From the NCBI GenBank assembly GCA_000004985.1, contig GG738857.1: 64,000 bases of DNA, one strand, 5' to 3'. The notes under the pieces were generated by a model. The model worked only from the letters and a program-made list of their open reading frames with translations. It did not search any database and was not told the DNA's origin. Shown piece by piece: positions 7,601 through 57,114 of this stretch; positions within the stretch are counted from its first letter, which is position 1; the number at the start of each line of letters is the position of its first letter. Source of the DNA: Naegleria gruberi. Lineage: Eukaryota. Made by a program: the position numbers and the translations under genes.

Positions 7601-7617
7601 GAAAGCTTGCTGTGAAC

Positions 7618-8226: not shown

Positions 8227-8267
8227 TCAGCATTAATTGAATTTTTGGAACTAAATTCCTTCCAAAG

Positions 8268-12647: not shown

Positions 12648-13050
12648 TACAAATTTCCTATCGGCCTATTGTTGTAGTCATCCATCACACGTTAATAAAA
12701 TCCCATCACAAAACACAAACCCAATCTTCGCCAAACATTTTTTTTAAAGTATAATAATTATAATAATTATTATAATTATTGACATTTAATTCCTTCTCGA
12801 TATATTATAATAATACCGATCACTTTCTAATTAAATTTTGATTTAAGGTCCTATCCACAAAAGACCTATATTCCGATCATTCATTTTCTTTTTGGACTAT
12901 TGCTAATACATGCATTTTTGTATGATAAAAGAGGGTCTACTTGTCTTACATTTTTTTAATTTAAATTTAAAAAGAATTTGAAAAATTAAGTAAGCGTTTT
13001 TTATTTGAAAGATTTTTTACCTTAATTTTGAACTTGTACTACAAATGTGC

Positions 13051-14340: not shown

Positions 14341-15927
14341 ATGACAATAATTTCAAAGAGTGTTGATGAGAAGGTGGAATTTCCAAGTGAAACCTTTGCA
14401 AATCTTGAACAAGAAGAAGTTGATATTGATGTGGATGATAGTTTGAGTTCGATCACTTTCAAAACCGAAACTGTTTTGTTATCCGAAAGTGGATTGGAGA
14501 ACTGGAGACAATCTGAAAGTATTCTTGACAGAACTGTTGAAGAAGATGTTGATCAAGAAGAAGAAGAGCAAAATGAAGATATTGCCAAAGGTCAAGTTGT
14601 TGAACAAGACGAAACTAAACCAAAAGGTGATGAACATGCTGACGAAAGATCAACCAAATCCTATTCGAAATATGTCACTGCTTCTCAAACCATTGCTGTC
14701 GTTGCCTTGATTGCAATTCTAATTGGTGTCCTCTTTATTCAATACGATACCATCAAAGCACTATTCGAAACTAAGGAGAAACCAACTCCTTGGAAGATTC
14801 CTCTCCTCCTTCATCAATCTACTCACAATCTTTACGATGGAAAACAAAATCTTCAAGTCAAAGTCTTCATTCCAATTAACAACACACTCGAAAATGATTT
14901 CTATTTTGGTGTTAAAGTGGAAGATTCCAAATATGTCAAAATGTATAATTTCTCAACATTTGAACTCAAGCACAATTCAAGTCATCCATGTTTTCAAGAT
15001 TATCTTGTTATTGAAAATGTTAATTATGATCCAAATAAGGAGTTTATGGTCAATTATACCATGCCTATTCGAACTGAGAAGAATTGTTTCGAACATAATT
15101 TTACGAGACTCCCAAATGAATTCTCCTTCCAAGTTAAGGTAAAGGATATTGATGGAAATTCCCACTTCTTTACATTCAATCAGACCATTAGAGCTAATTT
15201 CTTTATGGGAAAGTTTGAAAAGATTTTAACAAATTTGAATGGAAAAATTGTCAAGTTTTTGAGTATTGGAAAAAGTGGAAGTGCAAAATCGACTGGAATT
15301 GTTGAATTATTCTTTTTCAGGGATATTTCTAACACTCCTGAGCTTCCTATTGATCTACCTTCAAAAATGGTTCCAAGTCATGTGACTCTCAATGTGTCAG
15401 AATATAACATGTCATTTGTCCCAGCTCACAAACAGTATTATCAATTTCCATTGCCTATTATTGGTGTAGATCCTATGGGTTTTCTTAATGTTACTGATTT
15501 TGACAAGTTTTTGATTACTGGCAGATTGCCACTTCATGTTGACCTCGTTTCCAAATGTAAAAACAAAAAAGATTGTCTAAAACGTTATGCAAACAAACCA
15601 ATTAACATGCCAGATGTCATTCTCTATTACATTTATCCAGATCAAGTCGAATCACAAGCTATAGAAATCAATCAACGTCTTCAACTAATTGCCGATCATG
15701 GAATCACATGTATCTTAATGTTTCCATCTGGTAATTTCGACTCAGAAGTTGACCTTTCATTCATTAATGGCAGATTCGCAAACAAATTCTTCCTTTACGA
15801 TTTCTATAGAAGAGATGATCCAGGTTCTGCTAATAATCCAAATATTTATAAGCGAAATGCTGATTTGTTAATGAGAATGTTGGAGATTGCGAATGGAAAG
15901 AGAGTTAGTGAGCAGAGGGAAAATTAA
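14341..15927 (+). CDS. Hypothetical type II membrane glycoprotein (528 aa). Acidic cytosolic N-terminus, one TM (IAVVALIAILIGVLFI), large lumenal or extracellular domain with many N-x-S/T sites
   Basis: Complete ORF. It is transcribed divergently from 13051..14151, with a 189-bp spacer. Confidence 0.6.
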   Translation: MTIISKSVDEKVEFPSETFANLEQEEVDIDVDDSLSSITFKTETVLLSESGLENWRQSESILDRTVEEDVDQEEEEQNEDIAKGQVVEQDETKPKGDEHADERSTKSYSKYVTASQTIAVVALIAILIGVLFIQYDTIKALFETKEKPTPWKIPLLLHQSTHNLYDGKQNLQVKVFIPINNTLENDFYFGVKVEDSKYVKMYNFSTFELKHNSSHPCFQDYLVIENVNYDPNKEFMVNYTMPIRTEKNCFEHNFTRLPNEFSFQVKVKDIDGNSHFFTFNQTIRANFFMGKFEKILTNLNGKIVKFLSIGKSGSAKSTGIVELFFFRDISNTPELPIDLPSKMVPSHVTLNVSEYNMSFVPAHKQYYQFPLPIIGVDPMGFLNVTDFDKFLITGRLPLHVDLVSKCKNKKDCLKRYANKPINMPDVILYYIYPDQVESQAIEINQRLQLIADHGITCILMFPSGNFDSEVDLSFINGRFANKFFLYDFYRRDDPGSANNPNIYKRNADLLMRMLEIANGKRVSEQREN

Positions 15928-18742: not shown

Positions 18743-19654
18743 TTAAATCATGATCATTATCAAGACCATCACCAAAACTAAATAATTCGAAACCTTTACA
18801 ATATCCACACTACTCACTGATATCTTTGTAAAGGTAGAAAACGAGCTAGGATATCCAAACGCAATCACCTTACATGCAGTACAACTTGTCTTGTGATTAT
18901 TCATATAAATTGAAAAATCAACAACATCACCAATGATGGCATGAACTCTATTTCCAATAACTGCATCGAATTGTTCATCATATCCCAATGGAAGATAGGT
19001 TGCAAGTGGAAGGTTTTCCTTGATCCAATCCTCAAAGATAGTTCCAGAATAAGCTCCCACAATGGTGCCATTCTTATTGAACGAGTAAACATTTGAACTA
19101 TATCCAAGAGTTTCGTTATCCTTATTGTTTCGAATAAATCCGTATGAAGTGGAGCCATATGGACATGTTTGAAAGCTTACTTGAGTGGCTCTATCTGATG
19201 AATAAGAAGTGTCAGCAACAACAACATCACATCTTCCATCATTTACGGCATTTGACAAGGATGTAAAAAATCCATCGGTTGTGTTTATGAGAACGAGTGA
19301 ATTTTCCAATGACATTGAATATTGAGTATTGATTGCCTTGGTCAATTCTTCAGCAACCAACTTGTAGGCACTCGTCCAAGGTTCCATTGATTCCATTTGA
19401 TAACAATTCTTCAGTTGACTCATTCCTTTGAATGGATTCACACTCGGAAACACAACATTTGATGAACATTTAGGAACGTTGAAGAGAAGAATATCGAATA
19501 TTTTGCTTTGGAATGTAGATTCTTGAACAATGTTTTGAATGGCAGCATTAATTGCTTGTGTGAAGAGAGCTTGTTGACTATTTGTCAAGTCAATTGTCAT
19601 GAAAATGATCAACACTGCAAGAAAATTACTAGCAATAGATGAAGGAGCAAACAT
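18743..19654 (-). CDS. Secreted, probably GPI-anchored protein with a bacterial-type solute-binding protein family 3 (PBP type II; iGluR ligand-binding-domain fold) domain
   Basis: N-terminal signal peptide (MFAPSSIASNFLAVLIIFMTI). SBP_bac_3-like core (CDVVVADTSYSSDRATQVSFQTCPYGSTSYGFI). The C-terminus has Ser-rich omega-site candidates (SVSSVDIVKVS) followed by a terminal hydrophobic tail (NYLVLVMVLIMIMI-stop), typical of a GPI signal. Confidence 0.65.
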   Translation of the reverse strand: MFAPSSIASNFLAVLIIFMTIDLTNSQQALFTQAINAAIQNIVQESTFQSKIFDILLFNVPKCSSNVVFPSVNPFKGMSQLKNCYQMESMEPWTSAYKLVAEELTKAINTQYSMSLENSLVLINTTDGFFTSLSNAVNDGRCDVVVADTSYSSDRATQVSFQTCPYGSTSYGFIRNNKDNETLGYSSNVYSFNKNGTIVGAYSGTIFEDWIKENLPLATYLPLGYDEQFDAVIGNRVHAIIGDVVDFSIYMNNHKTSCTACKVIAFGYPSSFSTFTKISVSSVDIVKVSNYLVLVMVLIMIMI

Positions 19655-19776: not shown

Positions 19777-19826
19777 NNNNNNNNNNNNNNNNNNNNNNNN
19801 NNNNNNNNNNNNNNNNNNNNNNNNNN
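19777..19826. other. Assembly gap (50 N)
   Basis: n-run. Confidence 1.
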
Positions 19827-20501: not shown

Positions 20502-23500
20502 ATGTTGACAGGGAGCAGAGACTCTTCATCAGTAGCTGCCGTTGACCAACAAGATCCACGAAGCCAAAAACAAGATATGACTTTCGAGTACACATATTTG
20601 ATACAAGCACTATTGAATCAAAATCCAAAACTGAATAATTCTGAGTTTATTCAAGAGTTCAAAAAAAAGTTAGAGTCTTTTAAAGAAGATATTCAATCAG
20701 CCTACGAATTCACCGTTTCATTTAGTAACTATTTAAAGAAGGGCAAGGATGGTACGTTGCACGAGTTGAAATCTTTCAAATTCTTGAAAGTGGCAAGTCA
20801 CAAGCAACACTCATTTTTTCCAAAGAGGTTTTATGTAAAGGCAGTTGGTATTAATAATGATAGCACAACTGTATACCAATTACCAAAACTTATTGAGAGC
20901 AACAGAGTGTTTAGAAAATTTGACTTGATGGATTTCATCAAAGTTCAGTTTTCTGAGAACAGCAAAGTTTTGGACATGATAACAATTCTTGACAAGAAAT
21001 TCCAAGTTGTTGGTGGATCACAAAGCCAAATCAAAAAGGGATCTATTTACTACTATGACATCTCGAAACTGGAAACTGGAAAAACAGCCAATAGCTTGAT
21101 GGATAAACTTGGAAAGTTCGATAATGACTTTTTCAAGAAGATATCAAGACAAAGTTTAAATTTTACTCCTACTGTACGCATATGTACTCTTAAAAAGGAT
21201 GATATTGTTGAAGAGGACGATACATATGCAGGGAATGGGTCCATATTATCGGATGGAATAGGCATGATATCTTATTCTTTTGCTGCTGAGCACTTGAAGA
21301 ATGAAAAAGAAAACTTACCAACAGCATTCCAAGTAAGAATTGCTGGTTTTAAGGGGATGTTAACAGTGTATCCTGATGACATGCTAAAAAGAAAAGGAGT
21401 TAAAAAGAAAGTGATTTTGAGAAAAAGTATGAAGAAATTTGAGTGTAACAAAGATGACAAATATGATCTAGAAATAGTGGCATCCACGAAGGAAGAGCCA
21501 TCTCCCGCCTATTTTAACACACAAGTCTTTCTTTTGCTTTATTCACGCCGCATGAATTTCTTCTCTCAAAAGAAAATTGAGAATTATGATTATGATGTGA
21601 TGAAAATACTGAAATCCCATTACGGTGATGTTTTACCAAGTATTGATAGAGCGTCCTTTCACTCAAATCCTTTTTTGATAGATTTGTTGAGAAGTACACT
21701 AGCAAAGAAAAGAGATAATGGTAACATGTTGGTTACAGAAGGTATGACATGTTATGGTTTGCTGGATGAAACTAAAGAACTTAAAGAAAAGGAAGTTTTT
21801 GTAATGTTGGGAAACAAACATACCAAGTACGCTAAACCAAATACCAAATTTTTAAAGAGTGGGACAAAGGTGTTAGTTTTCAGATATCCAGTATTGAATA
21901 TAAATGAGATAAAGATGCTGACTGCAAAAGAACCTATCAATAATTTACAATTGAGTACAAATGATTGTGCAGTTGTTTTTTCAAGTGTATGTGCTGCATC
22001 TGATATTTCAGGTGACCTTGATGGTGACAAGTATGTTGTTATTTGGGATGAATCATTATCCCTGATAGGAGATAATATTACAAAAAAAATTGAATTGAAA
22101 GAGAAAAAAAAGGAAGATAAAGAGGAGCAAACAGAGTATGAAGAAATTATACCAAAAACGAAAGTTACACCAAAAACACTTTCAGAAGCGTTCACTCATT
22201 TAATAATAGCGCAACAGTACGTCGGAAAGATAGTAACGACCTGGCAAAATACAATAATGAATGGAAGATACACATATCTAACAGAATCTAGAAAACTAGC
22301 CAAACAATTCCAAATTGCAATGGACTTTCCTAAAACTGGGATACTTCCAAACATTGATTTGCTGCACTCGCCTCCAAACTCTCCCCTAAAGACTGTAAGA
22401 AAGAGAATAGATTTTATGTACAATTTTTTGACTCCAATATCTGACAATTCTAAAGTTGCTAAAATACCACCAGATATCAAGCCTATTTTTGATAAATATA
22501 TAGCAGAGATGGAACATTGGAAGTTGGTTTTGGGTATAGATGAAGTAGGAGTGATTACAAGAAAGAGTGTGTTTGAACCTATACAAGAGAAGTTTTCTAA
22601 ACAATTAGAAGGAAAGTCAGTTCCAATGAGTTTGGGGAGTTTTTCATTGCTGATGAAACCATCTGGAAAGGCTAAAAAATCAAAATACTCCAGTTTTAAA
22701 ACAATACTGGAGGGAAATTTCAGAGAATTTGTCGAACAATATTTGAAAAGAATTTTTAATAATGGGAAGGAGGAATTGAAGTATTTACAAAATTCCCTTA
22801 AAGAAATTACAAACAACCAAATTCTTTGGAAATACATTGCTCAAAAGCCAAATCTATACCTCATTCTTACTTACCTTATAGATAGAAATAATACAATGAT
22901 GAAATATGAACAGTTTGCTACAGATGAGTTGGTGTGGTCTTTTATCAAATATTGTATTTTAAAAGAATACCTTGTTCACGAAGATGAAAATCAGGCTGTT
23001 ACTTACGAAAAGGAAGAGCCAAACCTGGAATACCTCCTTGTTGAATTTAAAAAAGATAACCATTTCACTACAGAAATAGATAAGTTGATTGGTTTTATTA
23101 CTGATATTCCTAAAATGGATATATGGTATCCGAGAATTAAGGAAGTTTGTGAAAAAGTTAATGTAGAATACATTCCATTTTCAGAATTACTTCCATTACC
23201 TAATGAAAAAATGCTCGGAAAAGGAATACATGGAGAAGTGTTTCCAATGATGTTCCGATCAAAAAGAGTTGCTGTTAAAAAAGTTGAGTTTATATATCCA
23301 GATACTATTACTGGGTTTTTAGACGAGTTGGACCTTTTGGCAAAACTTAGAGGCCATGAAAATATAGCTGAATTGTATGCTGTTTCTCTTGATGGATACA
23401 ATGGGTTTTTAATCATGGAATATTGTGATTATGGATTATGGAATCACTATTTCAATAAGCAAAATAAGCAAAAACCAAAGATTAATTTTGACAAACTGCA

Positions 23501-24056
23501 ATTCCTTTCATTACTCAATGATATAGCTAACGGAATGGAGTGGATGCACAAAAAAAATGTGTTACACAGAGATCTAACAGTCCATAATATTGTATTGCTA
23601 GAATATAAAGGAGAACAAGGACCATTCCTCAAAGCCAAGTTGATTGATTTCCATTTAAGTGTTTCCAAAGACTGGTCAGATGCTGAAGAGAAACTGAAAT
23701 TCCTACCTCTTGAAAAATTAATCAAATGTTCTCCTGAAGCCATTAATGACAAATCAAATTATCATTTCCCAAGTGACGTTTTCATGTTTGGGAATATACT
23801 ATGGGAAATATTGCACCGAGAGGAAATATATCATCGGCTCAAATTTAAACATGCCATTCAATTGATTTTACAGGGAAAACTAAAACCTGTAACTGTAAAA
23901 ATTGATTTAGAAGTTTTGAAAGTTTTGGAAAACTGTTGGAACCTTGATCCAGACCAAAGGCCTACATTTGAGAGCATAGTTAAGGAGCTTTCTTCTCTGC
24001 TTGAACATGAAAAGAAGAAACGAATGAGATACAACCATTTCAATGCCTTAAAGTAA
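20502..24056 (+). CDS. RNA-dependent RNA polymerase (eukaryotic cellular RDR/QDE-1 family) fused to a C-terminal protein-kinase-like (TKL-like, possibly pseudokinase) domain. 1184 aa, single exon
   Basis: RdRP hallmarks are FQVRIAGFKGMLTVYPD, VLVFRYPVLNINEIKMLTAKEP, and the catalytic SGDLDGDKYVVIWDE (DbDGD motif). The C-terminus carries GKGIHGEV, VAVKK, HRDLTVHNIVL, DFH (not DFG), SPE (not APE), DVFMFGNILWE, and DPDQRPTF. The true start may be M at about 20577 (MTFEYTYL). Confidence 0.85.
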   Translation: MLTGSRDSSSVAAVDQQDPRSQKQDMTFEYTYLIQALLNQNPKLNNSEFIQEFKKKLESFKEDIQSAYEFTVSFSNYLKKGKDGTLHELKSFKFLKVASHKQHSFFPKRFYVKAVGINNDSTTVYQLPKLIESNRVFRKFDLMDFIKVQFSENSKVLDMITILDKKFQVVGGSQSQIKKGSIYYYDISKLETGKTANSLMDKLGKFDNDFFKKISRQSLNFTPTVRICTLKKDDIVEEDDTYAGNGSILSDGIGMISYSFAAEHLKNEKENLPTAFQVRIAGFKGMLTVYPDDMLKRKGVKKKVILRKSMKKFECNKDDKYDLEIVASTKEEPSPAYFNTQVFLLLYSRRMNFFSQKKIENYDYDVMKILKSHYGDVLPSIDRASFHSNPFLIDLLRSTLAKKRDNGNMLVTEGMTCYGLLDETKELKEKEVFVMLGNKHTKYAKPNTKFLKSGTKVLVFRYPVLNINEIKMLTAKEPINNLQLSTNDCAVVFSSVCAASDISGDLDGDKYVVIWDESLSLIGDNITKKIELKEKKKEDKEEQTEYEEIIPKTKVTPKTLSEAFTHLIIAQQYVGKIVTTWQNTIMNGRYTYLTESRKLAKQFQIAMDFPKTGILPNIDLLHSPPNSPLKTVRKRIDFMYNFLTPISDNSKVAKIPPDIKPIFDKYIAEMEHWKLVLGIDEVGVITRKSVFEPIQEKFSKQLEGKSVPMSLGSFSLLMKPSGKAKKSKYSSFKTILEGNFREFVEQYLKRIFNNGKEELKYLQNSLKEITNNQILWKYIAQKPNLYLILTYLIDRNNTMMKYEQFATDELVWSFIKYCILKEYLVHEDENQAVTYEKEEPNLEYLLVEFKKDNHFTTEIDKLIGFITDIPKMDIWYPRIKEVCEKVNVEYIPFSELLPLPNEKMLGKGIHGEVFPMMFRSKRVAVKKVEFIYPDTITGFLDELDLLAKLRGHENIAELYAVSLDGYNGFLIMEYCDYGLWNHYFNKQNKQKPKINFDKLQFLSLLNDIANGMEWMHKKNVLHRDLTVHNIVLLEYKGEQGPFLKAKLIDFHLSVSKDWSDAEEKLKFLPLEKLIKCSPEAINDKSNYHFPSDVFMFGNILWEILHREEIYHRLKFKHAIQLILQGKLKPVTVKIDLEVLKVLENCWNLDPDQRPTFESIVKELSSLLEHEKKKRMRYNHFNALK

Positions 24057-24248: not shown

Positions 24249-27206
24249 TTGAAAAAAATGAAAAAACGAATTTTGGCGAGAGTTGTTGATAAATCCGATA
24301 ATTGCTCGAAGCCTTGTTCATCATCTTTATCAAATAATAATAATAATCACATTATGAATGAAGACTTGGATAATTATTATCAAAATAATTTTGTTATTGG
24401 AGATTGGGGATTTATTCCGAAGGAATGGATTTGGGAGATTTGTTCCTTTCTCTTCCCGATTGATTATATGAAGTTAATTTGGATGAATAGTCATTGGTAT
24501 CATAGTATCCGAGGATTTGCTTCTCATCAGGAAGAGTTTAGATTCACCAAATTTATATTTGATAGGATCATGTTGTCGAGTTGTAAATATTCTCATCAGA
24601 AACAATTGGAAAAACATTCGGAAATGGATGAAGGAATCAGCCAAGAGCAATATTCAACATTTTTGGAATCTAATAGGAAACAGGTTCATTCATTGTTTAA
24701 TTTGTTTTTCACTGGTGTTCGCCATTGGTATTTTAGTGATTTGTTTATAGAAAAAGAATTAATTACGTGGTGTTTAGGTAGTGATGAGGAAAATCCGAAT
24801 AATACTTTGGAGAGCATTACATTTTTCAATTGTAAATTGGAATGTGGATTGGCACAGAATATTGCAAATAGTACGAGTAATTTGAGAGAGATTAATCTTC
24901 CTTATAGTGGATTTTGTGACATTGAAGTGACAAGGCAAAAGAATCTTCGGTTTGTGGACTCGTATCAGTCACAGTTCATGTCCTTCCTCTTGTTTCAAAA
25001 TGATTTTTCGTCGATAGAGAAGGGAAAATATAAAACAAAATCCATAGATCACGAAAAGAAACAAAACCGAGTGGAAGATGATAATTCACACATATTGGGA
25101 AATATTGACATCCTTGAATTATTGCCATTTTTCAATGATAGTACCAATAAGAGTTTTGAAACTTTAAAGTATATTTATTTGGAGGCATACGATGGTATAT
25201 CCGAGTCACATATTTCTCAGGACATTACTCAAACTCATGGAAATTTGATAACGAGCAATTCAGACGACAGAGAATTTTTACAGAGGAATATATTTAAAAA
25301 GAATAATCAATACTTTACATGGATAAACCTTCCAGATACAAGGAATAAGAGATTGGAAGTACCACTAGAGTTGTGCAAGGTTGGTGACCTGGATCATCAG
25401 CTCAAATCTGTGATATTTTCCAATGCAGATGAAGAGGGGGAAGAAGAATTTGGAAGGAGAAAAACTCCACAAGATTTAATTTATTTGGCTGCCATACTGC
25501 CTTCACACATTAATTTGATTTGTTTCTGTGGTTTGGAATCGTTCAAGACGAGAAGTGACTCAATAGACTCATATTTTGAATGTGTAGGATTTGAAAAGTG
25601 CTATGGAAAGACCAGTGCTCCTCCCTGTGTTCTTCTTAGCTCGCTGCAATCGAACAAGCACAAGGACTTGCCAACCGTATTCCTCAAATTGCAAAATAAT
25701 CTGCGAAAGAGAAACAAGACGAGGAAGGAATTCTCCCTAGTCAATTATTACGGCATTGAAAATCATTCTGGTGTTTATGGACATATTCACAGATTGACTG
25801 ATGTTATTATTTGGGGTGATATTCAAAAAGTAGACTATTTGCTGAATATGGGATTTCATATTCATGATTTATTGTACTTTGCACAAGTGAATAGTGCATT
25901 GTATACACACGATGATTCCTCAGATACGTGTGAGTGCTACCTGAGTGATTTGATGTTTTCCATAGTATTTTTCGGAATTGTACATAGGAAGGGTGAAAAT
26001 TTCTTAGAGTTATTAGGATTACTGACAAGGTTTGGAATGGAGAAGTTATTTGGACCCTTGTTGAATGTTTGGGAGAATAATTATTTGGATGTAAAGTTAT
26101 TGGAAAGTTTAACTCTTGTAGATTTATTAATTGTTATGAAACTTTACAAGTCTATGCTTTCATTTTCAATGATGTTTCCAGTCATCAAGACAGAATTCTT
26201 TGTAAAGATTGATTCTGATGAACATGATCATGAAATTAGAGACATGCTGGACTTGGATTTATTGGAGAGTAATTTGAAAGATTTATGGACCTGGTTGTTT
26301 GCTTCAATTGAACTATTGATGGAAGAGTTTTGGAATAGAGTTTATAAAAAGAAATCCTCTCTGATTGGTGTGAAAATCGAATCAAAGAGGGAACAGCCAG
26401 TGAGAATGGCCAAGATAATCAAACGACTAGAAAAAGGAGACTCGGCCATGTTTGATCAGGCAGAGAATGATTTAAATGAACTGAAAAAGGACTCGTTATG
26501 GAATTTCTTTATGACTGTGGATCATTCCTACATTGGAGAGCTCAGAGAAGAAGAGGAATGGTCTGGAGTATTGGAATCTGAAGATTTTGATTGGATTAAT
26601 TATTGTGACAATCCAGATCAAGCATCTAGAATTGGAATGATTATGAATAGTATTTGCATGGATCAGAGATTTGAATCGCCCATTCTCTCGGCAAGTTTAA
26701 ACTGCAATGAGGATGGTATTCGATTTTTGTTGGAAAAACTTCCTCCCTTAAATGTGGAATCTAGAACTGAACGATTTACTGAATGGCTCAATGAACCTCG
26801 TTTCCACGATACAACCAACAGAACTGTCACTCTATACGACGTTGTGGAATCTTCTTATCCAATTCTACGAGTATGTGATTTACTTTGTTTTAAACCTGTA
26901 GTGGTAGCTGGCATGATGCTAATTTATTGTCATGACGATAATGAATCGGACGAATCAATTGATTATCTTTCTCTCTTTAAGAGCTTGTTGGCAGATATTT
27001 ATTTTGAAACTGGAAGTATGAGAGATATTCCAGATATTGACATGTCCCTTACCAAATTCATTTCCAAATTGGATGTCAAGAAGAAATCAACTCCCTACTC
27101 GACAACATCTGTCTCTGAAGATCGAAGATTATCTACCTTAATTTATTTAACAGAAATTGGATGTAAAACAGTTTCCTCGAGAAGAGGTAGATCTTCCAAT
27201 AGGTAG
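24249..27206 (+). CDS. F-box-like protein with a large C-terminal region of unknown function (985 aa)
   Basis: The N-terminal segment IPKEWIWEICSFLFPIDYMKLIWMNSHWYHSI fits the F-box consensus (LPxEI..I.s.L...dL.....V.k.W). Long uninterrupted ORF with an N-rich low-complexity start. Confidence 0.65.
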   Translation: MKKMKKRILARVVDKSDNCSKPCSSSLSNNNNNHIMNEDLDNYYQNNFVIGDWGFIPKEWIWEICSFLFPIDYMKLIWMNSHWYHSIRGFASHQEEFRFTKFIFDRIMLSSCKYSHQKQLEKHSEMDEGISQEQYSTFLESNRKQVHSLFNLFFTGVRHWYFSDLFIEKELITWCLGSDEENPNNTLESITFFNCKLECGLAQNIANSTSNLREINLPYSGFCDIEVTRQKNLRFVDSYQSQFMSFLLFQNDFSSIEKGKYKTKSIDHEKKQNRVEDDNSHILGNIDILELLPFFNDSTNKSFETLKYIYLEAYDGISESHISQDITQTHGNLITSNSDDREFLQRNIFKKNNQYFTWINLPDTRNKRLEVPLELCKVGDLDHQLKSVIFSNADEEGEEEFGRRKTPQDLIYLAAILPSHINLICFCGLESFKTRSDSIDSYFECVGFEKCYGKTSAPPCVLLSSLQSNKHKDLPTVFLKLQNNLRKRNKTRKEFSLVNYYGIENHSGVYGHIHRLTDVIIWGDIQKVDYLLNMGFHIHDLLYFAQVNSALYTHDDSSDTCECYLSDLMFSIVFFGIVHRKGENFLELLGLLTRFGMEKLFGPLLNVWENNYLDVKLLESLTLVDLLIVMKLYKSMLSFSMMFPVIKTEFFVKIDSDEHDHEIRDMLDLDLLESNLKDLWTWLFASIELLMEEFWNRVYKKKSSLIGVKIESKREQPVRMAKIIKRLEKGDSAMFDQAENDLNELKKDSLWNFFMTVDHSYIGELREEEEWSGVLESEDFDWINYCDNPDQASRIGMIMNSICMDQRFESPILSASLNCNEDGIRFLLEKLPPLNVESRTERFTEWLNEPRFHDTTNRTVTLYDVVESSYPILRVCDLLCFKPVVVAGMMLIYCHDDNESDESIDYLSLFKSLLADIYFETGSMRDIPDIDMSLTKFISKLDVKKKSTPYSTTSVSEDRRLSTLIYLTEIGCKTVSSRRGRSSNR

Positions 27207-28094: not shown

Positions 28095-29105
28095 TTAATC
28101 CTTTCTCGATATTTTTCTCTTTTTCTTTTTCAAATTCTTCTTTGGTCGTTTTACATGCAAATGATCATGAACAGGTGGTTCATTTGGCAATGTCAAACAA
28201 ACAATTGGTGTGTCCATAGCCACCACTGGATCCATATTCACAATATTATGTGGCATTCTCTTTTGTGGTGAATGTAAGATGATGGTATTCTTTGGATCGA
28301 CATGTCCTTTATCAAACCACAAACTCGATGGTAAACTATTCGATCGATTCTTCCTTAATAAATCCACAAGAGCTGGTTCTTCAAAGATGGAGTCTCTTTG
28401 GGCATCTCCAGAAATTGTTGGTTGACTATTAAGAGAATGAGAGGATGAATCATGTTGGAATGCATTGATTGGATGTACTCTGTTTTTGGGAGATTTATTG
28501 CCATGCATGGATCGAGAAGCATTTGGAGAGGAGGAAGATAAGGGAAGCATGTAAGCCAATCCATCTTCGGATGTGATGGACATGGATCGATTGGCATGTA
28601 TTGGTCTACTATCTAGTGGTGTTGGAGATTTGTGTTGATTCTCAAGAGCTCCATCGTGATGAGCATGTCCTTTCCGATGATGCTGTGAAAAGTGTTGTTC
28701 TTGTTGAGAATTTGATGAAGGAGAGGAAGGTTGGGAAAGAGAATAAGTTGTTTTCAGGATGGATTTTGGAGGAGAGGATGAATATGATATCCTGTACTTG
28801 TTTTCACTAGAAGGTAATGTCGTTGTTATCGAAGAGGAATTATCAAACGTTGAATGAATATTATTATTCATCATTGTCATGGAGTGTTGTTGTTGCATAT
28901 TGATGGAGGGTCGAATCATCATGTTATTCCTCCGAATGGATTGTATTGAATTATTAAGCACATCATCATTGAGGAATTTGGCTGGATTGCCTGAATCATC
29001 CTCTCGACATGAATCATAGCCAAATGTTGAAGCCGATGATGAAGAACCTGCTGCTGATGAGGAGGACACTGATGAGAAGAATCCATTGGATGCTCTATTG
29101 CCCAT
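28095..29105 (-). CDS. Low-complexity S/N/H/Q-rich protein with an N-myristoylation consensus (MGNRAS) and a basic C-terminal tail (KRPKKNLKKKKRKISRKD)
   Basis: Complete 336-aa ORF. Gly2 and Ser6 fit the NMT consensus. Otherwise predicted disordered. Confidence 0.55.
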   Translation of the reverse strand: MGNRASNGFFSSVSSSSAAGSSSSASTFGYDSCREDDSGNPAKFLNDDVLNNSIQSIRRNNMMIRPSINMQQQHSMTMMNNNIHSTFDNSSSITTTLPSSENKYRISYSSSPPKSILKTTYSLSQPSSPSSNSQQEQHFSQHHRKGHAHHDGALENQHKSPTPLDSRPIHANRSMSITSEDGLAYMLPLSSSSPNASRSMHGNKSPKNRVHPINAFQHDSSSHSLNSQPTISGDAQRDSIFEEPALVDLLRKNRSNSLPSSLWFDKGHVDPKNTIILHSPQKRMPHNIVNMDPVVAMDTPIVCLTLPNEPPVHDHLHVKRPKKNLKKKKRKISRKD

Positions 29106-30014
29106 TCTCTATGCTGATGAAATGATTTATATATATTTATTTTGGCTGTTCCTTAATGCCCTATTCCAAATGAACATACAGTAAGGAAAAGGAACACAAT
29201 TTTTCTACTAGTTAATTACCATCACGATTTTGTTGATGTTCTCCTCTCGGTTGCTTCTAACAATCGCATAATTTCCAACTCGAGTAAAATAGATTACCAT
29301 TTATTTACAAGCTAAGGCTTGTTTAATGACCATTATTTCCGTGACGGACATCATGATGGACAATAGGGAATCACTTCCGCGCGATCATCCACCATAACCA
29401 TTAAGGTCATGAAAAATTTATTAAGGAAGAAAAACTTGTATTGATTGATCAAATCGATAATATTTATGGCCACGTTGAAGAAAATTGGACGAACATTAAT
29501 TACTCGATTTTCCAATTTTACTCTTGCTCCTAGATTGTTCACTTGAAACACAAAAACTTCATAACGAATAAATTCCCACAACAAATCAATGACTATTTTC
29601 AATTCTTCATGGACTATTTAGTAAGGCACATATCAATGCTACAATAAGCTCATAGATCTCTCAATATTGATCAGTGTAATAATTGAGAAAATTCCCAAAT
29701 AAGGTCTTTATATCCGTACTAAGGTGATTAGAAAGCAATTGTTTTATATTATAAAAAGAACTCATGTGGAAATTACATTACCTTAGAATGACATGACTCC
29801 TTCGCCGTATTTTAAATGCTAGGGTTGTGCCACAGGTCAATTCTATATAAGGAAATTAAGGTGGCGAAACTTTTGAACATATGCTTAGAAAATTAGTTGT
29901 AGTCAGTGAAATAAATAGAACGGTTACTATTTGTGATAATTAGCAAGTTCATCCAATCTGTCAGACATCAAGGAGAGAGTTGTTCACTAGCCAAAGATTC
30001 CACCACGTAAAAAA

Positions 30015-33014
30015 ATGTCATCCAAAACGAACCCCATTACTAGGCATATGCCATCATTATTAGCACACTATTTATTGTTATTATTCTTCTTTATTTTAAC
30101 ACTTTCGAATAGTTTAGTCTTGGGCGAAAGTTATAATGTTTATTCTTGGGGATTAAATATGGATGGTCAGACCGGAATGGACCTTCCAACAACACCCGGA
30201 AGCTTTGCAACTCCAACTTTAAATCAACACGTTTCTTCCTTGCTAGCGAATCCAAATTCTCTATACGAAAGTGTTTACAACATTGCGACGAAACCTTCAG
30301 ACATTACAATCTCGTTAAAAACCATCATTCCAGGATATAAATACAATCTCTATTGGTTCACATTCACGAATACCACCTCATCCGAAACTACTGACCAATT
30401 ATTTTCATGTGGAGATAATACAGACTATTGTTCTGGACTAAAGTCTCCCAAGTTTACAACAGAATTACAAGTAGTTTATGAATATTCAGCAACTTCTAAT
30501 AACAGATATTTGGATGGATCACTTTCTGGTAAGAAACTTGAAAGTGTTGATTGTATGGTTTCGTGTATTGCTTGTACGAAAGATGGTTTAGTCTTTGTTA
30601 GAGCTAGTTCACAAAAATGGGCATGGTATGCAGTTACTATTGATTCTGGATTGGTAGATGCCCAAGGAATCACAGTTTCGAATAAGTGCAAAAAGGTTTC
30701 GGTTGGTGGAACTTCCACCTCTGCTACCTATTTTGTAATGACAGATTCTGGACATTTATTCTCATGGGGAGAGTTTAACAGTGCAATGAGAGGATATGAT
30801 GATGCAGAATATTCAGGAACTGCTCCTCATTTAATTTCTACTGTTTTTGGAGCTTTCGAATTTGCAGTTCTTAAGGATTATGATATTCCAGTAAATGATG
30901 GGTTGGGAGTTTTGGGATATTTGAACGATACTGGATTATACTTGATTGGAAAAAATACGTATGGCCTCTTTGGAATTACAGTCGATGATTTGTTTTATTT
31001 AACTCCTTATTTGGCAATTGATAGTCAAGTTATTGGTTCCAAATTGAAAAAGATTGTTTTTGGTTATGCCAACGCTTTGGTTTTGGCAGAATCTGGAAAG
31101 GTTTATGCATTTGGAGGAAATGATTATGGTCAAGTCAATCCAAGTGGTTACGGCCCTTATCAGGAAAGTGTAGCTGAAATTAGTTCAGTTTCTGGATCTG
31201 TTGATTGTTTCTGCTCTGCTCATGCATGTGGTTGTAGGCAAACAGGTGGAAGTTTCAAAACTTGGGGATCTGATAAGGAGAGAGGATGGACAGGAGCTGC
31301 TTTGTTCGATTACATTAACTTTCCCGAGTCAAGCTCAACATTTTCCTTATTAACTAGGGGAGGATTTGCCATTTCGAATACAAATAAGCTCTATGCATGG
31401 GGTGATAATACGAATGGATACATGTGCTTGGGAGAAAAGTCAATTCAGATGACACCTAAATTACTTTTCAGCGCAAATTATCAATTGAAACAATTGGTGA
31501 GTGGAGAGGCCTGTTCTTATTCTCTCGGTGAGAGTGGAGGAGTTTCCATTGTAAACATGTGGGGAAATTGCACGAATGGATTGGGATTTGGAATTGCACC
31601 AAGTGGAGGATACTTGTTCCATAATTTAACAACTTTGGATAATAGTTTGCATTTACAAGGGTTGAAATATTCTCAATTGAGTATGTACAACCTGCATGCT
31701 GGTTTCCTATCGAGCTCTACACAACAGAAACCTTACATGATTGGTTATGGTGATAGTATGAGATTGGGAACTACTAATTTGAATGATTTGGATGTGTTAA
31801 CAAGTGTTGACACTACTGTTTTGGTAAATGAGGATATTGTTCAAGTTTCTGCTGGTTATGATCATACTGTCTATCTTACAAGAGGTGGTTACTTGATGGG
31901 TTCAGGTGACAATTCAAAAAGACAATTGGATCCTTTGGATGTATCTTATTCTGAATTGTTGAACATTAGTACAACAGTAATTCAGGAAGCAGGAGAACGA
32001 ATTGTTAAGGTAGTTGCAGGAAAACAGACAACATTTGTCCTGACAGATGCTGGTCATATTTGGGGAAAGGGATCAAATGAACAACAACAAATAAGCAAAA
32101 ATGGTCCTTCTCCAATTACTGAATTTCAACAACTTGATCCAACAACTAAAAATTTTACCAAATTGGCTGTAGGAACCTATCCAATCGCGTGTGAAGCTGG
32201 CGGGTTTGCATACAGATTCTCTGGGGACAATAAGGGTCCATGGCAATATTTCTATACCTATATGGAGTCTTGCTCTGATGTGTTTGCCAAAGATGACATT
32301 TATTACTTTATCACAAATGTTGGAAAGGTTTATGCAATTGGATCAAATTATTATAATCAAATCTCTACTGTCTATGGATTGGATGAAGTTACCCTTACTG
32401 CAAATATGATCTTCTCACCTGTAAAACTTGGTGGAATGCCTCGAATGATTGCTGTTGGAAATGGTTTCACAAGCATTGGTGTTGAAGTTCCTTCATATAC
32501 TTGTAATGGAAAGAATTTCTCAGATCCAACTGTGTGTAACGGAAAAGGTTATTGCATTTCCCAAAATCAGTGCCAATGTGAAAACTCCTATTGGACTGGA
32601 TCTGATTGCAGCACTCCAGTTTGTATTCCTGTGGAAGGAGGAGCAATTTGTAGTGGAAGAGGAGTGTGTATTGCACCAGATACCTGCAAATGCAATAGTG
32701 GATATTTTGGATCCAGATGTGAAACATATTATTGTTTTGGAATATTGCCAGATCCTTATGGAATGGCAACTACTAAACCTTGTAACAATAGAGGAAGTTG
32801 TAAAGGACCAGATACATGTGAATGTACCAGCAGTGAATATTATGGAGATGAGTGCCAATTTAAGAGGTGTTTCAGTGGAAATGGTGCATTCTTAAAGAGG
32901 AATTCATTAGCAGATCGCTTGTGTAATAAGATTAATTCACAAATATTGAATATTACCTATCCTATTCCCACTGGTGATATGTCTGGTACTCCTAATATTC
33001 CGAATAGAGGGTAA
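30015..33014 (+). CDS. Secreted protein with N-terminal RCC1-like beta-propeller repeats and C-terminal tenascin-type EGF repeats (999 aa)
   Basis: Signal peptide (LLAHYLLLLFFFILTLSNSLVLG). At least 9 repeats of the RCC1 kind (YSWGLNMDGQTG, VYAFGGNDYGQVN, LYAWGDNTNGYMCLG, YLMGSGDNSKRQLD, HIWGKGSNEQQQI, VYAIGSNYYNQI). The C-terminal Cys-rich repeats read CNGKGYCISQNQCQCENSYWTGSDC, CSGRGVCIAPDTCKCNSGYFGSRC, and CNNRGSCKGPDTCECTSSEYYGDEC. Confidence 0.8.
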   Translation: MSSKTNPITRHMPSLLAHYLLLLFFFILTLSNSLVLGESYNVYSWGLNMDGQTGMDLPTTPGSFATPTLNQHVSSLLANPNSLYESVYNIATKPSDITISLKTIIPGYKYNLYWFTFTNTTSSETTDQLFSCGDNTDYCSGLKSPKFTTELQVVYEYSATSNNRYLDGSLSGKKLESVDCMVSCIACTKDGLVFVRASSQKWAWYAVTIDSGLVDAQGITVSNKCKKVSVGGTSTSATYFVMTDSGHLFSWGEFNSAMRGYDDAEYSGTAPHLISTVFGAFEFAVLKDYDIPVNDGLGVLGYLNDTGLYLIGKNTYGLFGITVDDLFYLTPYLAIDSQVIGSKLKKIVFGYANALVLAESGKVYAFGGNDYGQVNPSGYGPYQESVAEISSVSGSVDCFCSAHACGCRQTGGSFKTWGSDKERGWTGAALFDYINFPESSSTFSLLTRGGFAISNTNKLYAWGDNTNGYMCLGEKSIQMTPKLLFSANYQLKQLVSGEACSYSLGESGGVSIVNMWGNCTNGLGFGIAPSGGYLFHNLTTLDNSLHLQGLKYSQLSMYNLHAGFLSSSTQQKPYMIGYGDSMRLGTTNLNDLDVLTSVDTTVLVNEDIVQVSAGYDHTVYLTRGGYLMGSGDNSKRQLDPLDVSYSELLNISTTVIQEAGERIVKVVAGKQTTFVLTDAGHIWGKGSNEQQQISKNGPSPITEFQQLDPTTKNFTKLAVGTYPIACEAGGFAYRFSGDNKGPWQYFYTYMESCSDVFAKDDIYYFITNVGKVYAIGSNYYNQISTVYGLDEVTLTANMIFSPVKLGGMPRMIAVGNGFTSIGVEVPSYTCNGKNFSDPTVCNGKGYCISQNQCQCENSYWTGSDCSTPVCIPVEGGAICSGRGVCIAPDTCKCNSGYFGSRCETYYCFGILPDPYGMATTKPCNNRGSCKGPDTCECTSSEYYGDECQFKRCFSGNGAFLKRNSLADRLCNKINSQILNITYPIPTGDMSGTPNIPNRG

Positions 33015-33082
33015 AGTTTTATTTAAATGTGTCCAATAAATATTTAAAATAAACTCTATCTTCCAATAAAGTAATAATAAAT

Positions 33083-57063: not shown

Positions 57064-57065
57064 CN

Positions 57066-57114
57066 NNNNNNNNNNNNNNNNNNNNNNNNNNNNNNNNNNN
57101 NNNNNNNNNNNNNN
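57066..57114. other. Assembly gap (49 N)
   Basis: n-run. Confidence 1.

What the first reader, a model, noticed from the sequence alone, without database searches (positions are those of the whole stretch)
20502..24056. Cellular RdRP fused in one ORF to a C-terminal protein-kinase-like domain
One uninterrupted 1184-aa ORF carries the eukaryotic RDR-family catalytic core (SGDLDGDKYVVIWDE, VLVFRYPVLNINEIKMLTA, FQVRIAGFKGML). It is followed by a complete kinase fold (GKGIHGEV, VAVKK, HRDLTVHNIVL, DPDQRPTF) in which DFG is DFH and APE is SPE, so it may be a pseudokinase or atypical kinase. Known cellular RdRPs are stand-alone (QDE-1, RDR1-6, EGO-1) or helicase-fused (Dictyostelium RrpA-C). I do not recognise an RdRP-kinase fusion as a described architecture. 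Such a fusion would couple small-RNA amplification to phospho-signalling or to a phospho-dependent scaffold.
Basis: partly seen in the sequence, partly recalled or inferred. Interest (0 to 1): 0.78.

Follow-up and report, generated by a model that had tools for sequence, protein, structure and literature searches.

The report
Unannotated RdRP–protein kinase fusion gene
One intact 1184-codon gene of the amoeboflagellate Naegleria gruberi joins an RNA-silencing-type RNA-dependent RNA polymerase to a protein-kinase domain; no other protein with this combination turned up in a 1.84-billion-protein search, and the public annotation records only the kinase end.

Summary
Window 20502-24056 (+) is one uninterrupted 1184-aa ORF. 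Pfam finds RdRP (PF05183, aa 121-622, E 2.5e-68) and a protein kinase (PF07714, aa 902-1163, E 3.8e-40).

The window is Naegleria gruberi nuclear DNA. The public gene model (XP_002679530.1 / D2V914, 281 aa) covers only aa 904-1184. The RdRP-coding 2.7 kb has no public gene model.

RdRP-family homology runs to aa 838 and kinase-family homology starts at aa 869. This leaves about 30 residues, too few for a gene boundary. The nearest RdRP relatives (one N. gruberi paralogue, one in Willaertia) carry an unrelated ~570-aa C-terminal domain at the position of the kinase, so this looks like a C-terminal domain swap.

The kinase belongs to a small subfamily found so far only in Heterolobosea (the group containing Naegleria and Willaertia). 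Its other two members are NMNAT-like adenylyltransferase–kinase fusions. All three share HRDL[T/S]xxN and DF[H/S], and all keep the canonical catalytic residues (K, E, D, N, D). By the usual criterion it is therefore not a pseudokinase.

The RdRP keeps DLDGD but uniquely degrades the NPCLHPGD motif.

None of the 150 best hits in a search of 1.84 billion representative proteins combines both domains.

Transcript evidence, orthologues and function remain untested. I rate it a new variant of a known kind, of moderate interest.

The parts
20502..24056 (+). Whole ORF, 1184 codons plus TAA stop; proposed single gene (RdRP–kinase fusion)
   Evidence: one stop in frame against about 97 expected; coding-like codon usage throughout; in-frame stop 63 nt upstream of the ATG
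20502..20861 (+). N-terminal region, aa 1-120, predicted helical, no known domain
   Evidence: no Pfam hit; helices 28-91, pLDDT about 65-86
20862..22367 (+). Cellular RdRP catalytic domain (Pfam PF05183), aa 121-622
   Evidence: E 2.5e-68; RDR2 and QDE-1 by sequence; Foldseek: RDR2 E 2.5e-30, QDE-1 E 1e-24
21249..21356 (+). Conserved RdRP motifs SDGIGMIS (aa 250-257) and FQVRIAGFKG (aa 276-285), intact
   Evidence: invariant columns D251 G252 G254 Q277 R279 G282 K284 G285
21882..21908 (+). RYPVLNINE (aa 461-469): degenerate version of the [K/R]NPCLHPGD motif; only R, P and L are kept
   Evidence: all 16 aligned RdRPs have NP[CG][LM]HPxD; the query alone deviates at N462Y, C464V, H466N, P467I, G468N, D469E
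22014..22028 (+). DLDGD (aa 505-509), the metal-binding catalytic aspartate motif of cellular RdRPs, intact
22368..23015 (+). Post-catalytic helical region, aa 623-838. Its last part (aa 748-838, nt 22743-23015) is shared with the N. gruberi and Willaertia RdRP relatives
   Evidence: query 764-838 matches P0025 1006-1081; query 748-828 matches P0033 1734-1814; helical, low pLDDT
23016..23105 (+). Junction, aa 839-868, between the last RdRP-family homology and the first kinase-family homology; the point of the inferred domain swap
23106..23204 (+). Pre-kinase extension (aa 869-901: a helix plus short strands) conserved with the NMNAT-like–kinase proteins and packed on the N-lobe in the model
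   Evidence: invariant IPF.E, C, N columns; pLDDT 81-97 for module residues 31-60
23205..23990 (+). Protein-kinase domain, aa 902-1163. Contains G-loop 906-913, K926, E942, HRD 1022-1024, N1029, DFH 1049-1051, SPE 1077-1079, R1153
23211..24056 (+). Extent of the only public gene model here (XP_002679530.1 / EFC46786.1 / D2V914, NAEGRDRAFT_32075, 281 aa, starting at internal Met904)
   Evidence: 100% identity to aa 904-1184; no model for the upstream part

Best explanation
Window 20502-24056 is one real, intact, native Naegleria gruberi gene. It encodes a 1184-aa protein.

Its first ~840 residues are a divergent member of the cellular (RDR/QDE-1-type) RNA-dependent RNA polymerase family. Its last ~315 residues are a tyrosine-kinase-like (TK/TKL-like) protein-kinase module.

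The module comes from a small kinase subfamily known so far only from Heterolobosea. It sits where the closest RdRP relatives carry an unrelated ~570-aa C-terminal domain. The fusion therefore arose by replacement of the RdRP's C-terminal domain. The public annotation missed the gene and kept only a truncated kinase fragment.

Shown:
- The single ORF and the two domains.
- The ~30-residue junction.
- Retention of the RdRP Asp triad and of every canonical kinase catalytic residue.
- Confident kinase fold.
- RDR2/QDE-1-like fold of the polymerase core.

Inferred mechanism:
- Both centres are active.
- The kinase acts in cis as a regulatory or effector module of an RdRP complex.
- It phosphorylates the polymerase itself or proteins recruited to the RNA template (Argonaute, Dicer or other partners), so that dsRNA or small-RNA synthesis is gated by, or signals through, phosphorylation.

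The mechanism is a hypothesis. The architecture is the solid part.
For: Single gene:
- One stop in 1185 codons against about 97 expected, and coding-like codon usage in all segments including the linker.
- No assembly gap in the ORF.
- RdRP-family homology reaches aa 838 and kinase-family homology starts at aa 869. Only ~90 nt remain for a stop, an intergenic region and a start.
- The public 281-aa model begins at Met904, two residues before the Gly-rich loop. It omits a conserved pre-kinase helix and strands that are modelled at pLDDT 81-97.
- There is no public model for the RdRP part. The plus-strand GenBank protein ids of the neighbours (EFC46784, EFC46786, EFC46788) leave only one unassigned id on each side of the kinase model, and each matches a known neighbouring ORF.

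Domains:
- Pfam E 2.5e-68 and 3.8e-40.
- PDB sequence hits to RDR2 and QDE-1 and to CSK, KIT, BRAF and TAK1.
- AF2 kinase model pLDDT 90.9, pTM 0.87, with Foldseek hits to MerTK, CSK and FGFR2 at E about 1e-18.
- RdRP model core pLDDT mostly 70-90, with Foldseek hits to RDR2 at E 2.5e-30 and QDE-1 at E 1e-24.

Likely activity:
- DLDGD and 33 invariant RdRP columns are kept.
- GxGxxG, K926, E942, D1024, N1029 and D1049 are invariant across the three-member kinase subfamily despite only 36-45% overall identity.

Domain swap:
- P0025 (N. gruberi) and P0033 (Willaertia) are collinear over ~1500 aa, including a C-terminal extension. That extension has no similarity to the kinase module (BLAST none, hhalign probability 0.45%).

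Native gene:
- GC content and codon usage match the neighbours.

Long-term maintenance:
- Both halves are at most 37% identical to their nearest relatives, yet the ORF is intact in a 33% GC genome.
Against: - No transcript, EST, proteomic or orthologue evidence could be obtained. The fusion is known from one assembly of one strain.
- The only public gene model is kinase-only. An internal promoter giving a kinase-only product cannot be excluded.
- No orthologous fusion appeared among the annotated proteins of N. lovaniensis or Willaertia that the search returned, or in two metagenome scans. Conservation of the fusion is therefore unsupported.
- The RdRP half is the most divergent in the set (107-189 bits to the others, against 95-350 among the others, only paralogue P0116 scoring comparably low). 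It alone has lost the NPCLHPGD signature. It may not polymerise RNA.
- The kinase lacks the catalytic-loop Lys/Arg and the DFG glycine. It may have low or no phosphotransfer activity.
- Region 620-868 is modelled with low confidence.
- Nothing here bears directly on substrates or on a link to RNAi.
Confidence: 0.55

Rival explanations
1. The kinase module does not transfer phosphate. It is a nucleotide-binding or dimerisation scaffold (a functional pseudokinase) that regulates the polymerase allosterically. This would resemble the kinase or pseudokinase domains of Ire1 and RNase L, which control their fused RNase domains by nucleotide-dependent dimerisation (the analogy is from my own knowledge).
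For: - The catalytic-loop Lys (HRDLK) or Arg (HRDLAARN) is absent in all three subfamily members (T/T/S at +2; H/S/Q at +4).
- The DFG glycine is replaced by H/H/S.
- The same module is attached to two unrelated NTP-using nucleotidyltransferases, the RdRP here and an NMNAT-like adenylyltransferase in P0023 and P0024. That pattern suits a generic regulatory module.
Against: - Every residue normally used to define an active kinase is invariant in the subfamily at only 36-45% identity: G-loop, beta3 Lys, alphaC Glu, HRD Asp, Asn, DFx Asp. Pseudokinases usually lose at least one.
- From memory, active kinases without the catalytic-loop Lys and without the DFG Gly exist (haspin).
Confidence: 0.22
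2. The locus yields two products, or only one. In this reading a kinase-only protein is made from an internal start (as in the public model), and the RdRP part is untranslated, separately expressed or non-functional. The 'fusion' would exist only as an ORF.
For: - The public annotation has a 281-aa kinase-only model.
- Met904 lies at the start of the Pfam kinase match.
- The RdRP half is unusually divergent.
Against: - 903 stop-free, coding-like codons lie upstream in a 33% GC genome.
- Homology blocks abut within 30 residues.
- The 281-aa model removes conserved N-lobe elements (aa 869-903) that are present in the sister proteins and confidently modelled.
- A kinase that starts two residues before its Gly-rich loop is structurally implausible.
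- In both sister proteins the module is likewise a C-terminal appendage, not a free-standing gene.
Confidence: 0.1
3. The RdRP half is catalytically dead or has taken on a new role (for example as an RNA-binding or targeting domain). The protein would then be essentially a kinase delivered to RNA or to RNAi complexes.
For: - The query alone among 17 RdRPs has lost N462, H466, P467 and D469 of the NPCLHPGD motif.
- It has the lowest similarity scores to other RdRPs.
- Another N. gruberi paralogue (P0116) has lost the first catalytic Asp (NLQFKDGD). RdRP decay or neofunctionalisation does therefore occur in this genome.
Against: - DLDGD and all 33 alignment-invariant columns are retained, including QxRxxGxKG and SDGIG.
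- The R, P and L of the degraded motif are retained.
- The core folds like RDR2 and QDE-1.
Confidence: 0.1
4. Artefact: an assembly chimera, a sequencing error that removed a stop codon, or a decaying pseudogene.
For: - The scaffold is a draft with six N runs in 64 kb, one of them 675 bp upstream.
- No independent assembly of this ORF was found.
Against: - No gap inside the ORF.
- Uniform GC, GC3 and codon usage across segments.
- Frame preserved for 1184 codons.
- The junction leaves no room for an intergenic region.
- A pseudogene this diverged from its relatives would have accumulated stops (about 97 expected).
Confidence: 0.03

Closest known systems
Stand-alone cellular RdRPs (Arabidopsis/maize RDR2, Neurospora QDE-1; Pfam PF05183)
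   Same: - Same catalytic domain family (Pfam E 2.5e-68).
- Same DxDGD metal-binding motif, and the QxRxxGxKG and SDGIG motifs.
- The model superposes on RDR2 and QDE-1 (Foldseek E 2.5e-30 and 1e-24).
   Different: - No RRM-like N-terminal domain.
- None of the plant RDR C-terminal or accessory Pfam families that accompany PF05183 in the plant hits (PF24823, PF26253, PF24577, PF24572) is detected.
- The NPCLHPGD motif is degraded.
- A protein-kinase domain is at the C-terminus.
Helicase–RdRP fusions (Dictyostelium RrpA-C type; here represented by Willaertia P0033 and P0006)
   Same: An RdRP joined in one polypeptide to a second NTP-using enzyme domain. P0033 is among the closest RdRP relatives (29% identity) and shares the post-catalytic segment aa 748-828.
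   Different: - In those proteins the partner is an N-terminal DEAD/ResIII helicase acting on RNA.
- Here it is a C-terminal protein kinase acting, presumably, on protein.
- The query has no helicase.
N. gruberi paralogue P0025 (XP_002676801.1, D2VGF8, 1650 aa)
   Same: Closest RdRP domain (31% over 525 aa) and a shared post-catalytic segment (query 764-838 matches 1006-1081).
   Different: - P0025 continues into a ~570-aa C-terminal domain conserved with Willaertia P0033. That domain is unrelated to kinases.
- The query has the kinase module there instead.
- P0025 keeps NPCLHPSD.
Kinases with an NMNAT-like N-terminal domain, from two genera of Heterolobosea: P0023 (Willaertia magna KAL9648249.1) and P0024 (Naegleria lovaniensis XP_044555560.1)
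   Same: - Closest kinase modules (36-37% by BLAST, 39-40% by phmmer).
- Homology includes the pre-kinase helix from aa 869.
- Shared derived HRDL[T/S]xxN, DF[H/S], GxGxxGEV and SDV[F/Y]MF motifs.
- In both, the module is C-terminal to a nucleotidyltransferase.
   Different: - The N-terminal partner is a cytidylyltransferase-like or NMNAT-like domain (PF01467; TIGR00482 below cut-off), not an RdRP.
- They are 45% identical to each other but only 36% to the query.
Ire1 and RNase L (kinase or pseudokinase fused to an RNA-processing enzyme domain)
   Same: The concept only: a protein-kinase fold covalently joined to an enzyme acting on RNA, where nucleotide binding or phosphorylation of the kinase domain controls the RNA enzyme (from my own knowledge, not tested here).
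   Different: - Different RNA enzyme (KEN RNase against a double-psi beta-barrel polymerase).
- Different domain order.
- No sequence relationship beyond the general kinase fold.
Public gene model XP_002679530.1 / D2V914 (NAEGRDRAFT_32075, 'predicted protein', 281 aa)
   Same: 100% identical to aa 904-1184 of the ORF.
   Different: It lacks the first 903 residues: the whole RdRP, the junction, and the conserved pre-kinase helix and strands.

Membership tests
Cellular (eukaryotic) RNA-dependent RNA polymerase, Pfam PF05183 / RDR–QDE-1 family | Significant match to the family profile above the curated threshold | tested here: met
   231.6 bits against cut-off 23.8, aa 121-622 covering profile positions 4-539 of 582
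Cellular (eukaryotic) RNA-dependent RNA polymerase, Pfam PF05183 / RDR–QDE-1 family | Catalytic DxDGD aspartate motif | tested here: met
   DLDGD at aa 505-509; D507, G508 and D509 are invariant columns
Cellular (eukaryotic) RNA-dependent RNA polymerase, Pfam PF05183 / RDR–QDE-1 family | [K/R]NPCLHPGD signature strand upstream of the catalytic loop | tested here: not met
   the query has RYPVLNINE. All 16 other aligned RdRPs keep N, H, P and D. Only R, P and L are retained in the query.
Cellular (eukaryotic) RNA-dependent RNA polymerase, Pfam PF05183 / RDR–QDE-1 family | Fold similar to solved RDR2 and QDE-1 structures | tested here: met
   AF2 core pLDDT mostly 70-90. Foldseek gives RDR2 at E 2.5e-30 and QDE-1 at E 1.3e-24, TM about 0.5. 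The whole-model pLDDT is only 61.6, so details are unreliable.
Cellular (eukaryotic) RNA-dependent RNA polymerase, Pfam PF05183 / RDR–QDE-1 family | RNA-templated RNA synthesis activity | not testable with these tools
   Needs a biochemical assay
Eukaryotic protein kinase superfamily (Pfam PF00069 / PF07714) | Profile match above threshold and a bilobal kinase fold | tested here: met
   138.3 and 106.1 bits against cut-offs 23.1 and 31.7; pLDDT 90.9, pTM 0.87; MerTK, CSK, FGFR2, KIT at E about 1e-18 to 1e-17
Eukaryotic protein kinase superfamily (Pfam PF00069 / PF07714) | Canonical catalytic residues: GxGxxG, beta3 Lys, alphaC Glu, HRD Asp, catalytic-loop Asn, DFG Asp | tested here: met
   G906/G908/G911, K926, E942, D1024, N1029, D1049. 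All are invariant in the three-member subfamily.
Eukaryotic protein kinase superfamily (Pfam PF00069 / PF07714) | Catalytic-loop Lys (HRDLKxxN) or Arg (HRDLAARN), and the DFG glycine | tested here: not met
   HRDLTVHN and DFH. The sisters have HRDLTISN with DFH, and HRDLSLQN with DFS.
Pseudokinase (usual operational definition: loss of the beta3 Lys, the HRD Asp or the DFG Asp) | At least one of the three residues missing | tested here: not met
   all three are present and conserved. This ORF is not filed as a pseudokinase by this criterion, although its activity is untested.
TKL or TK group assignment of the kinase | Closest similarity to TKL or TK kinases and group-specific catalytic-loop or P+1 motifs | tested here: inconclusive
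   PF07714 scores higher than PF00069. The best PDB matches are TKs (JAK, CSK, KIT, FGFR, MerTK) and TKLs (BRAF, TAK1, MLK1). The catalytic loop matches neither group's consensus. No phylogeny was done.
Helicase–RdRP fusions (Dictyostelium Rrp type) | N-terminal DEAD/ResIII helicase domain | tested here: not met
   no helicase domain in the query. It is present in P0033 and P0006.

The most novel reading that the evidence does not exclude
The protein is made as one polypeptide with both activities. It would be the first known enzyme that physically couples RNA-templated RNA synthesis of the RNAi type to protein phosphorylation. This would give at least one member of the Heterolobosea a way to gate or broadcast dsRNA and small-RNA amplification through a built-in kinase. 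The same kinase module on an NMNAT-like adenylyltransferase would then point to a previously unrecognised lineage-specific regulatory module for nucleotidyltransferases.
Probability: 0.3. Interest if true: 0.65.

Novelty: new variant of a known kind. Interest (0 to 1): 0.5.

Why it matters
Cellular RdRPs are known as stand-alone enzymes or as partners of helicases, nucleotidyltransferases or Pol IV. A covalently attached protein kinase has not been described in the literature I could search. None of the best 150 hits from 1.84 billion representative proteins combines the two domains.

If the fusion is expressed and active, it offers a natural handle on a poorly understood question: how RdRP activity is switched on, restrained or coupled to downstream signalling.

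It is also a concrete annotation correction. N. gruberi has one more RdRP paralogue than its proteome shows, and D2V914 is a fragment.

The finding also defines a small kinase subfamily, known so far only from Heterolobosea, with a conserved unusual catalytic loop (HRDL[T/S]xxN, DF[H/S]). In both architectures seen, the kinase follows an NTP-consuming nucleotidyltransferase.

The limits are real:
- one species and one assembly;
- no expression data;
- Naegleria is rich in lineage-specific kinase fusions, so a specialist would be intrigued rather than astonished.

Tried and rejected
1. The word-indexed protein search was too insensitive. It missed even the N. gruberi paralogue. My third search used too strict an E-value and returned only P0014. 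All three searches are now used.
2. Exact-sequence look-ups of the ORF, of P0014 and of two neighbours in the contig index found nothing. I could not view the public gene calls directly. I inferred them from accession order instead.
3. Two metagenome scans were run: one with RdRP peptides, one with kinase-subfamily patterns. They gave nothing, or only 21-26% identical generic kinases. A viral-contig scan with the RdRP alignment gave nothing.
4. A combined full-length alignment (A2) was rejected. MAFFT laid the RdRP catalytic region of the homologues over the query's kinase domain. The two halves were therefore modelled separately, and no inter-domain geometry was obtained.
5. I tested whether the long C-terminal extension of paralogue P0025 is a cryptic kinase, which would make the fusion ancient. 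It is not: hhalign probability 0.45% and no BLAST hit.
6. A PDB search with P0023 to identify its N-terminal domain was swamped by kinases. NCBIfam then showed weak NMNAT/NaMNAT similarity.
7. A giant-virus or mobile-element origin is not supported. Composition and codon usage match the neighbours, and there are no viral relatives.
8. Literature searches for an RdRP–kinase fusion, Naegleria RdRPs or the locus tag returned nothing relevant. The WIREs RNA 2014 review of RNAi domain architectures is not held.
9. A metagenome contig 97.6% identical to window 28118-34801 exists. It stops about 4 kb short of the ORF, so no second allele was available for a dN/dS test.

Full report
**1. Observation**

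- Window 20502-24056 (+) is a single ATG-to-TAA ORF of 1184 codons. An in-frame stop lies 63 nt upstream of the ATG.
- In this 33% GC sequence the reading frame has only its terminal stop. The other five frames have 33-119 stops, and shuffles of the same bases give about 97 (minimum 68).
- Codon-usage log-odds, trained on twelve other long ORFs of the window, are positive in frame 0 and negative in frames 1 and 2. This holds for each of four segments: N-terminus, RdRP, inter-domain region and kinase. GC and GC3 are uniform across them.
- No N run lies inside the ORF. The nearest is 19777-19826.
- Pfam reports RdRP PF05183 (aa 121-622, E 2.5e-68), PK_Tyr_Ser-Thr PF07714 (aa 902-1163, E 3.8e-40) and Pkinase PF00069 (E 2.7e-30).

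**2. Source and public annotation**

- The neighbours are typical eukaryotic nuclear genes: DUF4116 plus kinase, ankyrin plus BTB, RCC1 plus EGF, a tyrosine phosphatase, SNF2, LRR and aldose epimerase. Some are evidently split by introns.
- An exhaustive phmmer search of 1.84 billion cluster representatives returned a 281-aa protein 100% identical to aa 904-1184 (P0014). This is Naegleria gruberi XP_002679530.1 / EFC46786.1 / UniProt D2V914, NAEGRDRAFT_32075, 'predicted protein'.
- Several neighbouring ORFs are exact N. gruberi proteins:
  - D2V910 = 13054-14151 (-)
  - D2V911 = 14341-15924 (+)
  - D2V913 = 18746-19654 (-)
  - D2V917 = 28098-29105 (-)
  - D2V918 = 30015-33011 (+)
- Plus-strand GenBank protein ids found here are EFC46784 (14341-15924), EFC46786 (the kinase model) and EFC46788 (30015-33011). 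The single unassigned id on each side matches a known neighbouring ORF, so the numbering leaves no model for nt 20502-23210.
- Neither the full ORF nor a version starting at Met26 is in the 15-billion-protein collection.
- No protein with more than 33% identity to the RdRP half exists in either protein library.
- The public proteome therefore holds only the kinase end. The RdRP-coding 2.7 kb is unannotated.

**3. Is it one gene?**

- The RdRP relatives P0025 (N. gruberi D2VGF8, 1650 aa) and P0033 (Willaertia magna, helicase–RdRP, 2397 aa) align with the catalytic domain. They also align with a second segment: query 764-838 to P0025 1006-1081, and query 748-828 to P0033 1734-1814.
- The nearest kinases are P0023 (Willaertia magna) and P0024 (N. 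lovaniensis). They align from query aa 869 and 876 respectively, which is 26-33 residues upstream of the Pfam kinase start.
- The two homology blocks are thus separated by only about 30 residues (aa 839-868). That leaves no room for a stop codon, an intergenic region and a new start.
- The AF2 model of aa 840-1184 (pLDDT 90.9, pTM 0.87) places a helix (aa 872-885) and short strands (aa 889-898) at pLDDT 81-97 before the Gly-rich loop.
- The public 281-aa model starts at Met904, two residues before GKGIHGEV, and so cuts these conserved elements off. I read it as a truncated homology-based model, not as evidence for a separate gene.
- Direct transcript evidence could not be obtained.

**4. The polymerase half**

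- By sequence it matches maize and Arabidopsis RDR2 and QDE-1.
- In a 17-sequence alignment (A3), all 33 invariant columns include the query. Among them are D251, G252, G254, Q277, R279, G282, K284, G285 and D507, G508, D509 of DLDGD.
- The AF2 model of aa 1-868 has moderate confidence: mean pLDDT 61.6, core mostly 70-90, aa 620-868 below 50. Its best PDB matches are RDR2 (E 2.5e-30) and QDE-1 (E about 1e-24), followed distantly by the largest subunits of multisubunit RNA polymerases.
- Two things are unusual.
  - First, the [K/R]NPCLHPGD motif is present in all 16 other sequences, including three from Heterolobosea. In the query it is RYPVLNINE, with only R, P and L kept. From my own knowledge this strand corresponds to the R-x-P-[ST]-L-H strand of the beta-prime double-psi beta-barrel. 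The retained residues may be its functional core, but I did not test this.
  - Second, the domain is the most divergent in the set. It scores 107-189 bits against the others, which score 95-350 among themselves, only P0116 scoring comparably low.
- Another N. gruberi paralogue, P0116, has NLQFKDGD in place of DxDGD.

**5. The kinase half**

- The closest PDB sequences and folds are tyrosine and tyrosine-kinase-like kinases: JAK, CSK, KIT, FGFR, MerTK, BRAF and TAK1.
- Motif comparison with 59 of the best hits shows that the query, P0023 and P0024 form a distinct trio. They share HRDL[T/S]xxN (no Lys at +2 and no Arg at +4), DF[H/S] instead of DFG, GxGxxGEV and SDV[F/Y]MF.
- Within the trio, the Gly-rich loop, K926, E942, H1022-R-D1024, N1029, D1049-F, P-E, D1092 and R1153 are invariant. 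Overall identity is only 36-45%.
- DFH is thus a conserved subfamily trait, not decay. By the usual K/D/D criterion the domain is not a pseudokinase. Activity is untested.
- In P0023 and P0024 the module follows a cytidylyltransferase-like domain (PF01467) with weak NMNAT/NaMNAT similarity. In both known architectures, therefore, the module is C-terminal to an NTP-consuming nucleotidyltransferase.

**6. Origin of the fusion**

- P0025 and P0033 are collinear over about 1500 residues, including a ~570-aa C-terminal extension.
- That extension shows no similarity to the kinase module: no BLAST hit and hhalign probability 0.45%.
- The query follows these relatives up to aa 838 and then carries the kinase module. 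The simplest reading is that the ancestral C-terminal domain was replaced by a kinase module.
- Both halves are at most 37% identical to their nearest relatives, yet the ORF is intact. The coding sequence has therefore been under purifying selection for a long time. The age of the junction itself is unknown.

**7. Is the architecture found elsewhere?**

- Among the best 150 proteins of the exhaustive search (score cut-off about 98 bits), only P0025, P0033 and P0116 have RdRP similarity, and none of them has a kinase.
- None of the 147 kinase-only hits (the 150 less the three RdRPs; P0014 is the fragment of this ORF) matches an RdRP HMM even at E 10.
- A protein with even a weak RdRP match (50-80 bits) plus a weak kinase match (60 bits or more) should have entered that list.
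- The caveat is that the library holds predicted proteins. As N. gruberi itself shows, such fusions can be mis-annotated.
- Metagenome and viral scans found no relatives.
- Literature searches found no description.

**8. Mechanism**

Shown: one ORF, two enzyme folds, catalytic residues retained in both, and a very short junction.

Inferred:
- (a) Preferred reading: both centres are active. The kinase is a cis-acting regulatory or effector module that phosphorylates the polymerase or proteins assembled with it on the template.
- (b) The module is a nucleotide-binding or dimerising scaffold in the manner of Ire1 and RNase L. The missing catalytic-loop Lys/Arg, the missing DFG Gly and its attachment to two different nucleotidyltransferases favour this.
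- (c) The RdRP half is no longer a polymerase and serves as an RNA-binding or targeting domain for the kinase.
- (d) An internal start yields only a kinase.
- (e) Artefact or pseudogene. This is very unlikely.

None of (a) to (c) can be separated without biochemistry.

**9. Verdict**

- Three points are added: the pseudokinase suggestion is weakened, the polymerase half is itself atypical, and the public annotation hides the gene.
- It is a new variant of a known kind: a cellular RdRP with a novel accessory domain.
- It is known from one species and one assembly, with no expression or functional evidence. I score interest at 0.5.

Noticed in passing
window 62289-62699 (with flanks 61750-62280 and 62750-63260): There are 68 tandem copies of TTTGGG (97% matches), preceded by a few TTTAGG variants and ending at an N gap (62700-62749). 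About 500 bp upstream of the array is repeated after the gap. This is a telomere-like G-strand array with a repeated subtelomere-like unit, lying inside a scaffold.
   Followed up: partly
window 23211-24056 and 20502-23210: The public N. gruberi proteome entry D2V914 / XP_002679530.1 is a 281-aa fragment starting at internal Met904. The upstream 2.7 kb of the same ORF (the whole RdRP) has no gene model.
   Followed up: yes
P0116 (N. gruberi XP_002677050.1 / D2VG84, 553 aa), not in the window: This N. gruberi RdRP paralogue has NLQFKDGD where all others have DxDGD: the first catalytic Asp is lost and three residues are inserted. It may be an inactive or truncated RdRP.
   Followed up: no
P0023 (Willaertia magna KAL9648249.1) and P0024 (N. 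lovaniensis XP_044555560.1), not in the window: The sister kinases of the fusion's kinase module are themselves an undescribed-looking architecture. An NMNAT-like adenylyltransferase (PF01467; TIGR00482 below cut-off) is followed by the same atypical kinase.
   Followed up: partly
P0025 aa 1081-1650 and P0033 aa 1814-2397, not in the window: A ~570-aa C-terminal domain with no Pfam match at E ≤ 1e-4 is conserved between the N. gruberi and Willaertia RdRPs (collinear over about 1500 aa). It occupies the position of the kinase module in the fusion.
   Followed up: partly
L006 1-6724 = window 28118-34801: An ENA metagenome contig (ERZ929261, PRJEB11402) is 97.6% identical over 6.7 kb with the same gene order. 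An N. gruberi-like strain is therefore present in that environmental sample.
   Followed up: partly
window 10494-12647 (-) and 3848-4777 (+): Two further protein-kinase genes lie within 17 kb. One has N-terminal DUF4116 repeats, which form a 75-nt x4 tandem repeat at 12358-12662. The other starts at kinase profile position 76, so it probably has an upstream exon.
   Followed up: no
window 56111-56765: A 126-nt coding tandem repeat (about 5 copies, 74% matches) encodes Cys-rich EGF-like units. It spans two adjacent ORFs (55595-56350 and 56347-57063) just before an N gap at 57065-57114. This is possibly one gene split by a frameshift or assembly problem.
   Followed up: no
window 7550-8450: Three overlapping 'ORFs' on both strands here are artefacts of the 609-nt N run at 7618-8226.
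   Followed up: yes
window 24249-27206 (+): A 985-aa ORF lies 190 nt downstream on the same strand. It has no Pfam match, and its ATG-started product is not an exact public protein, so the public model must differ.
   Followed up: no
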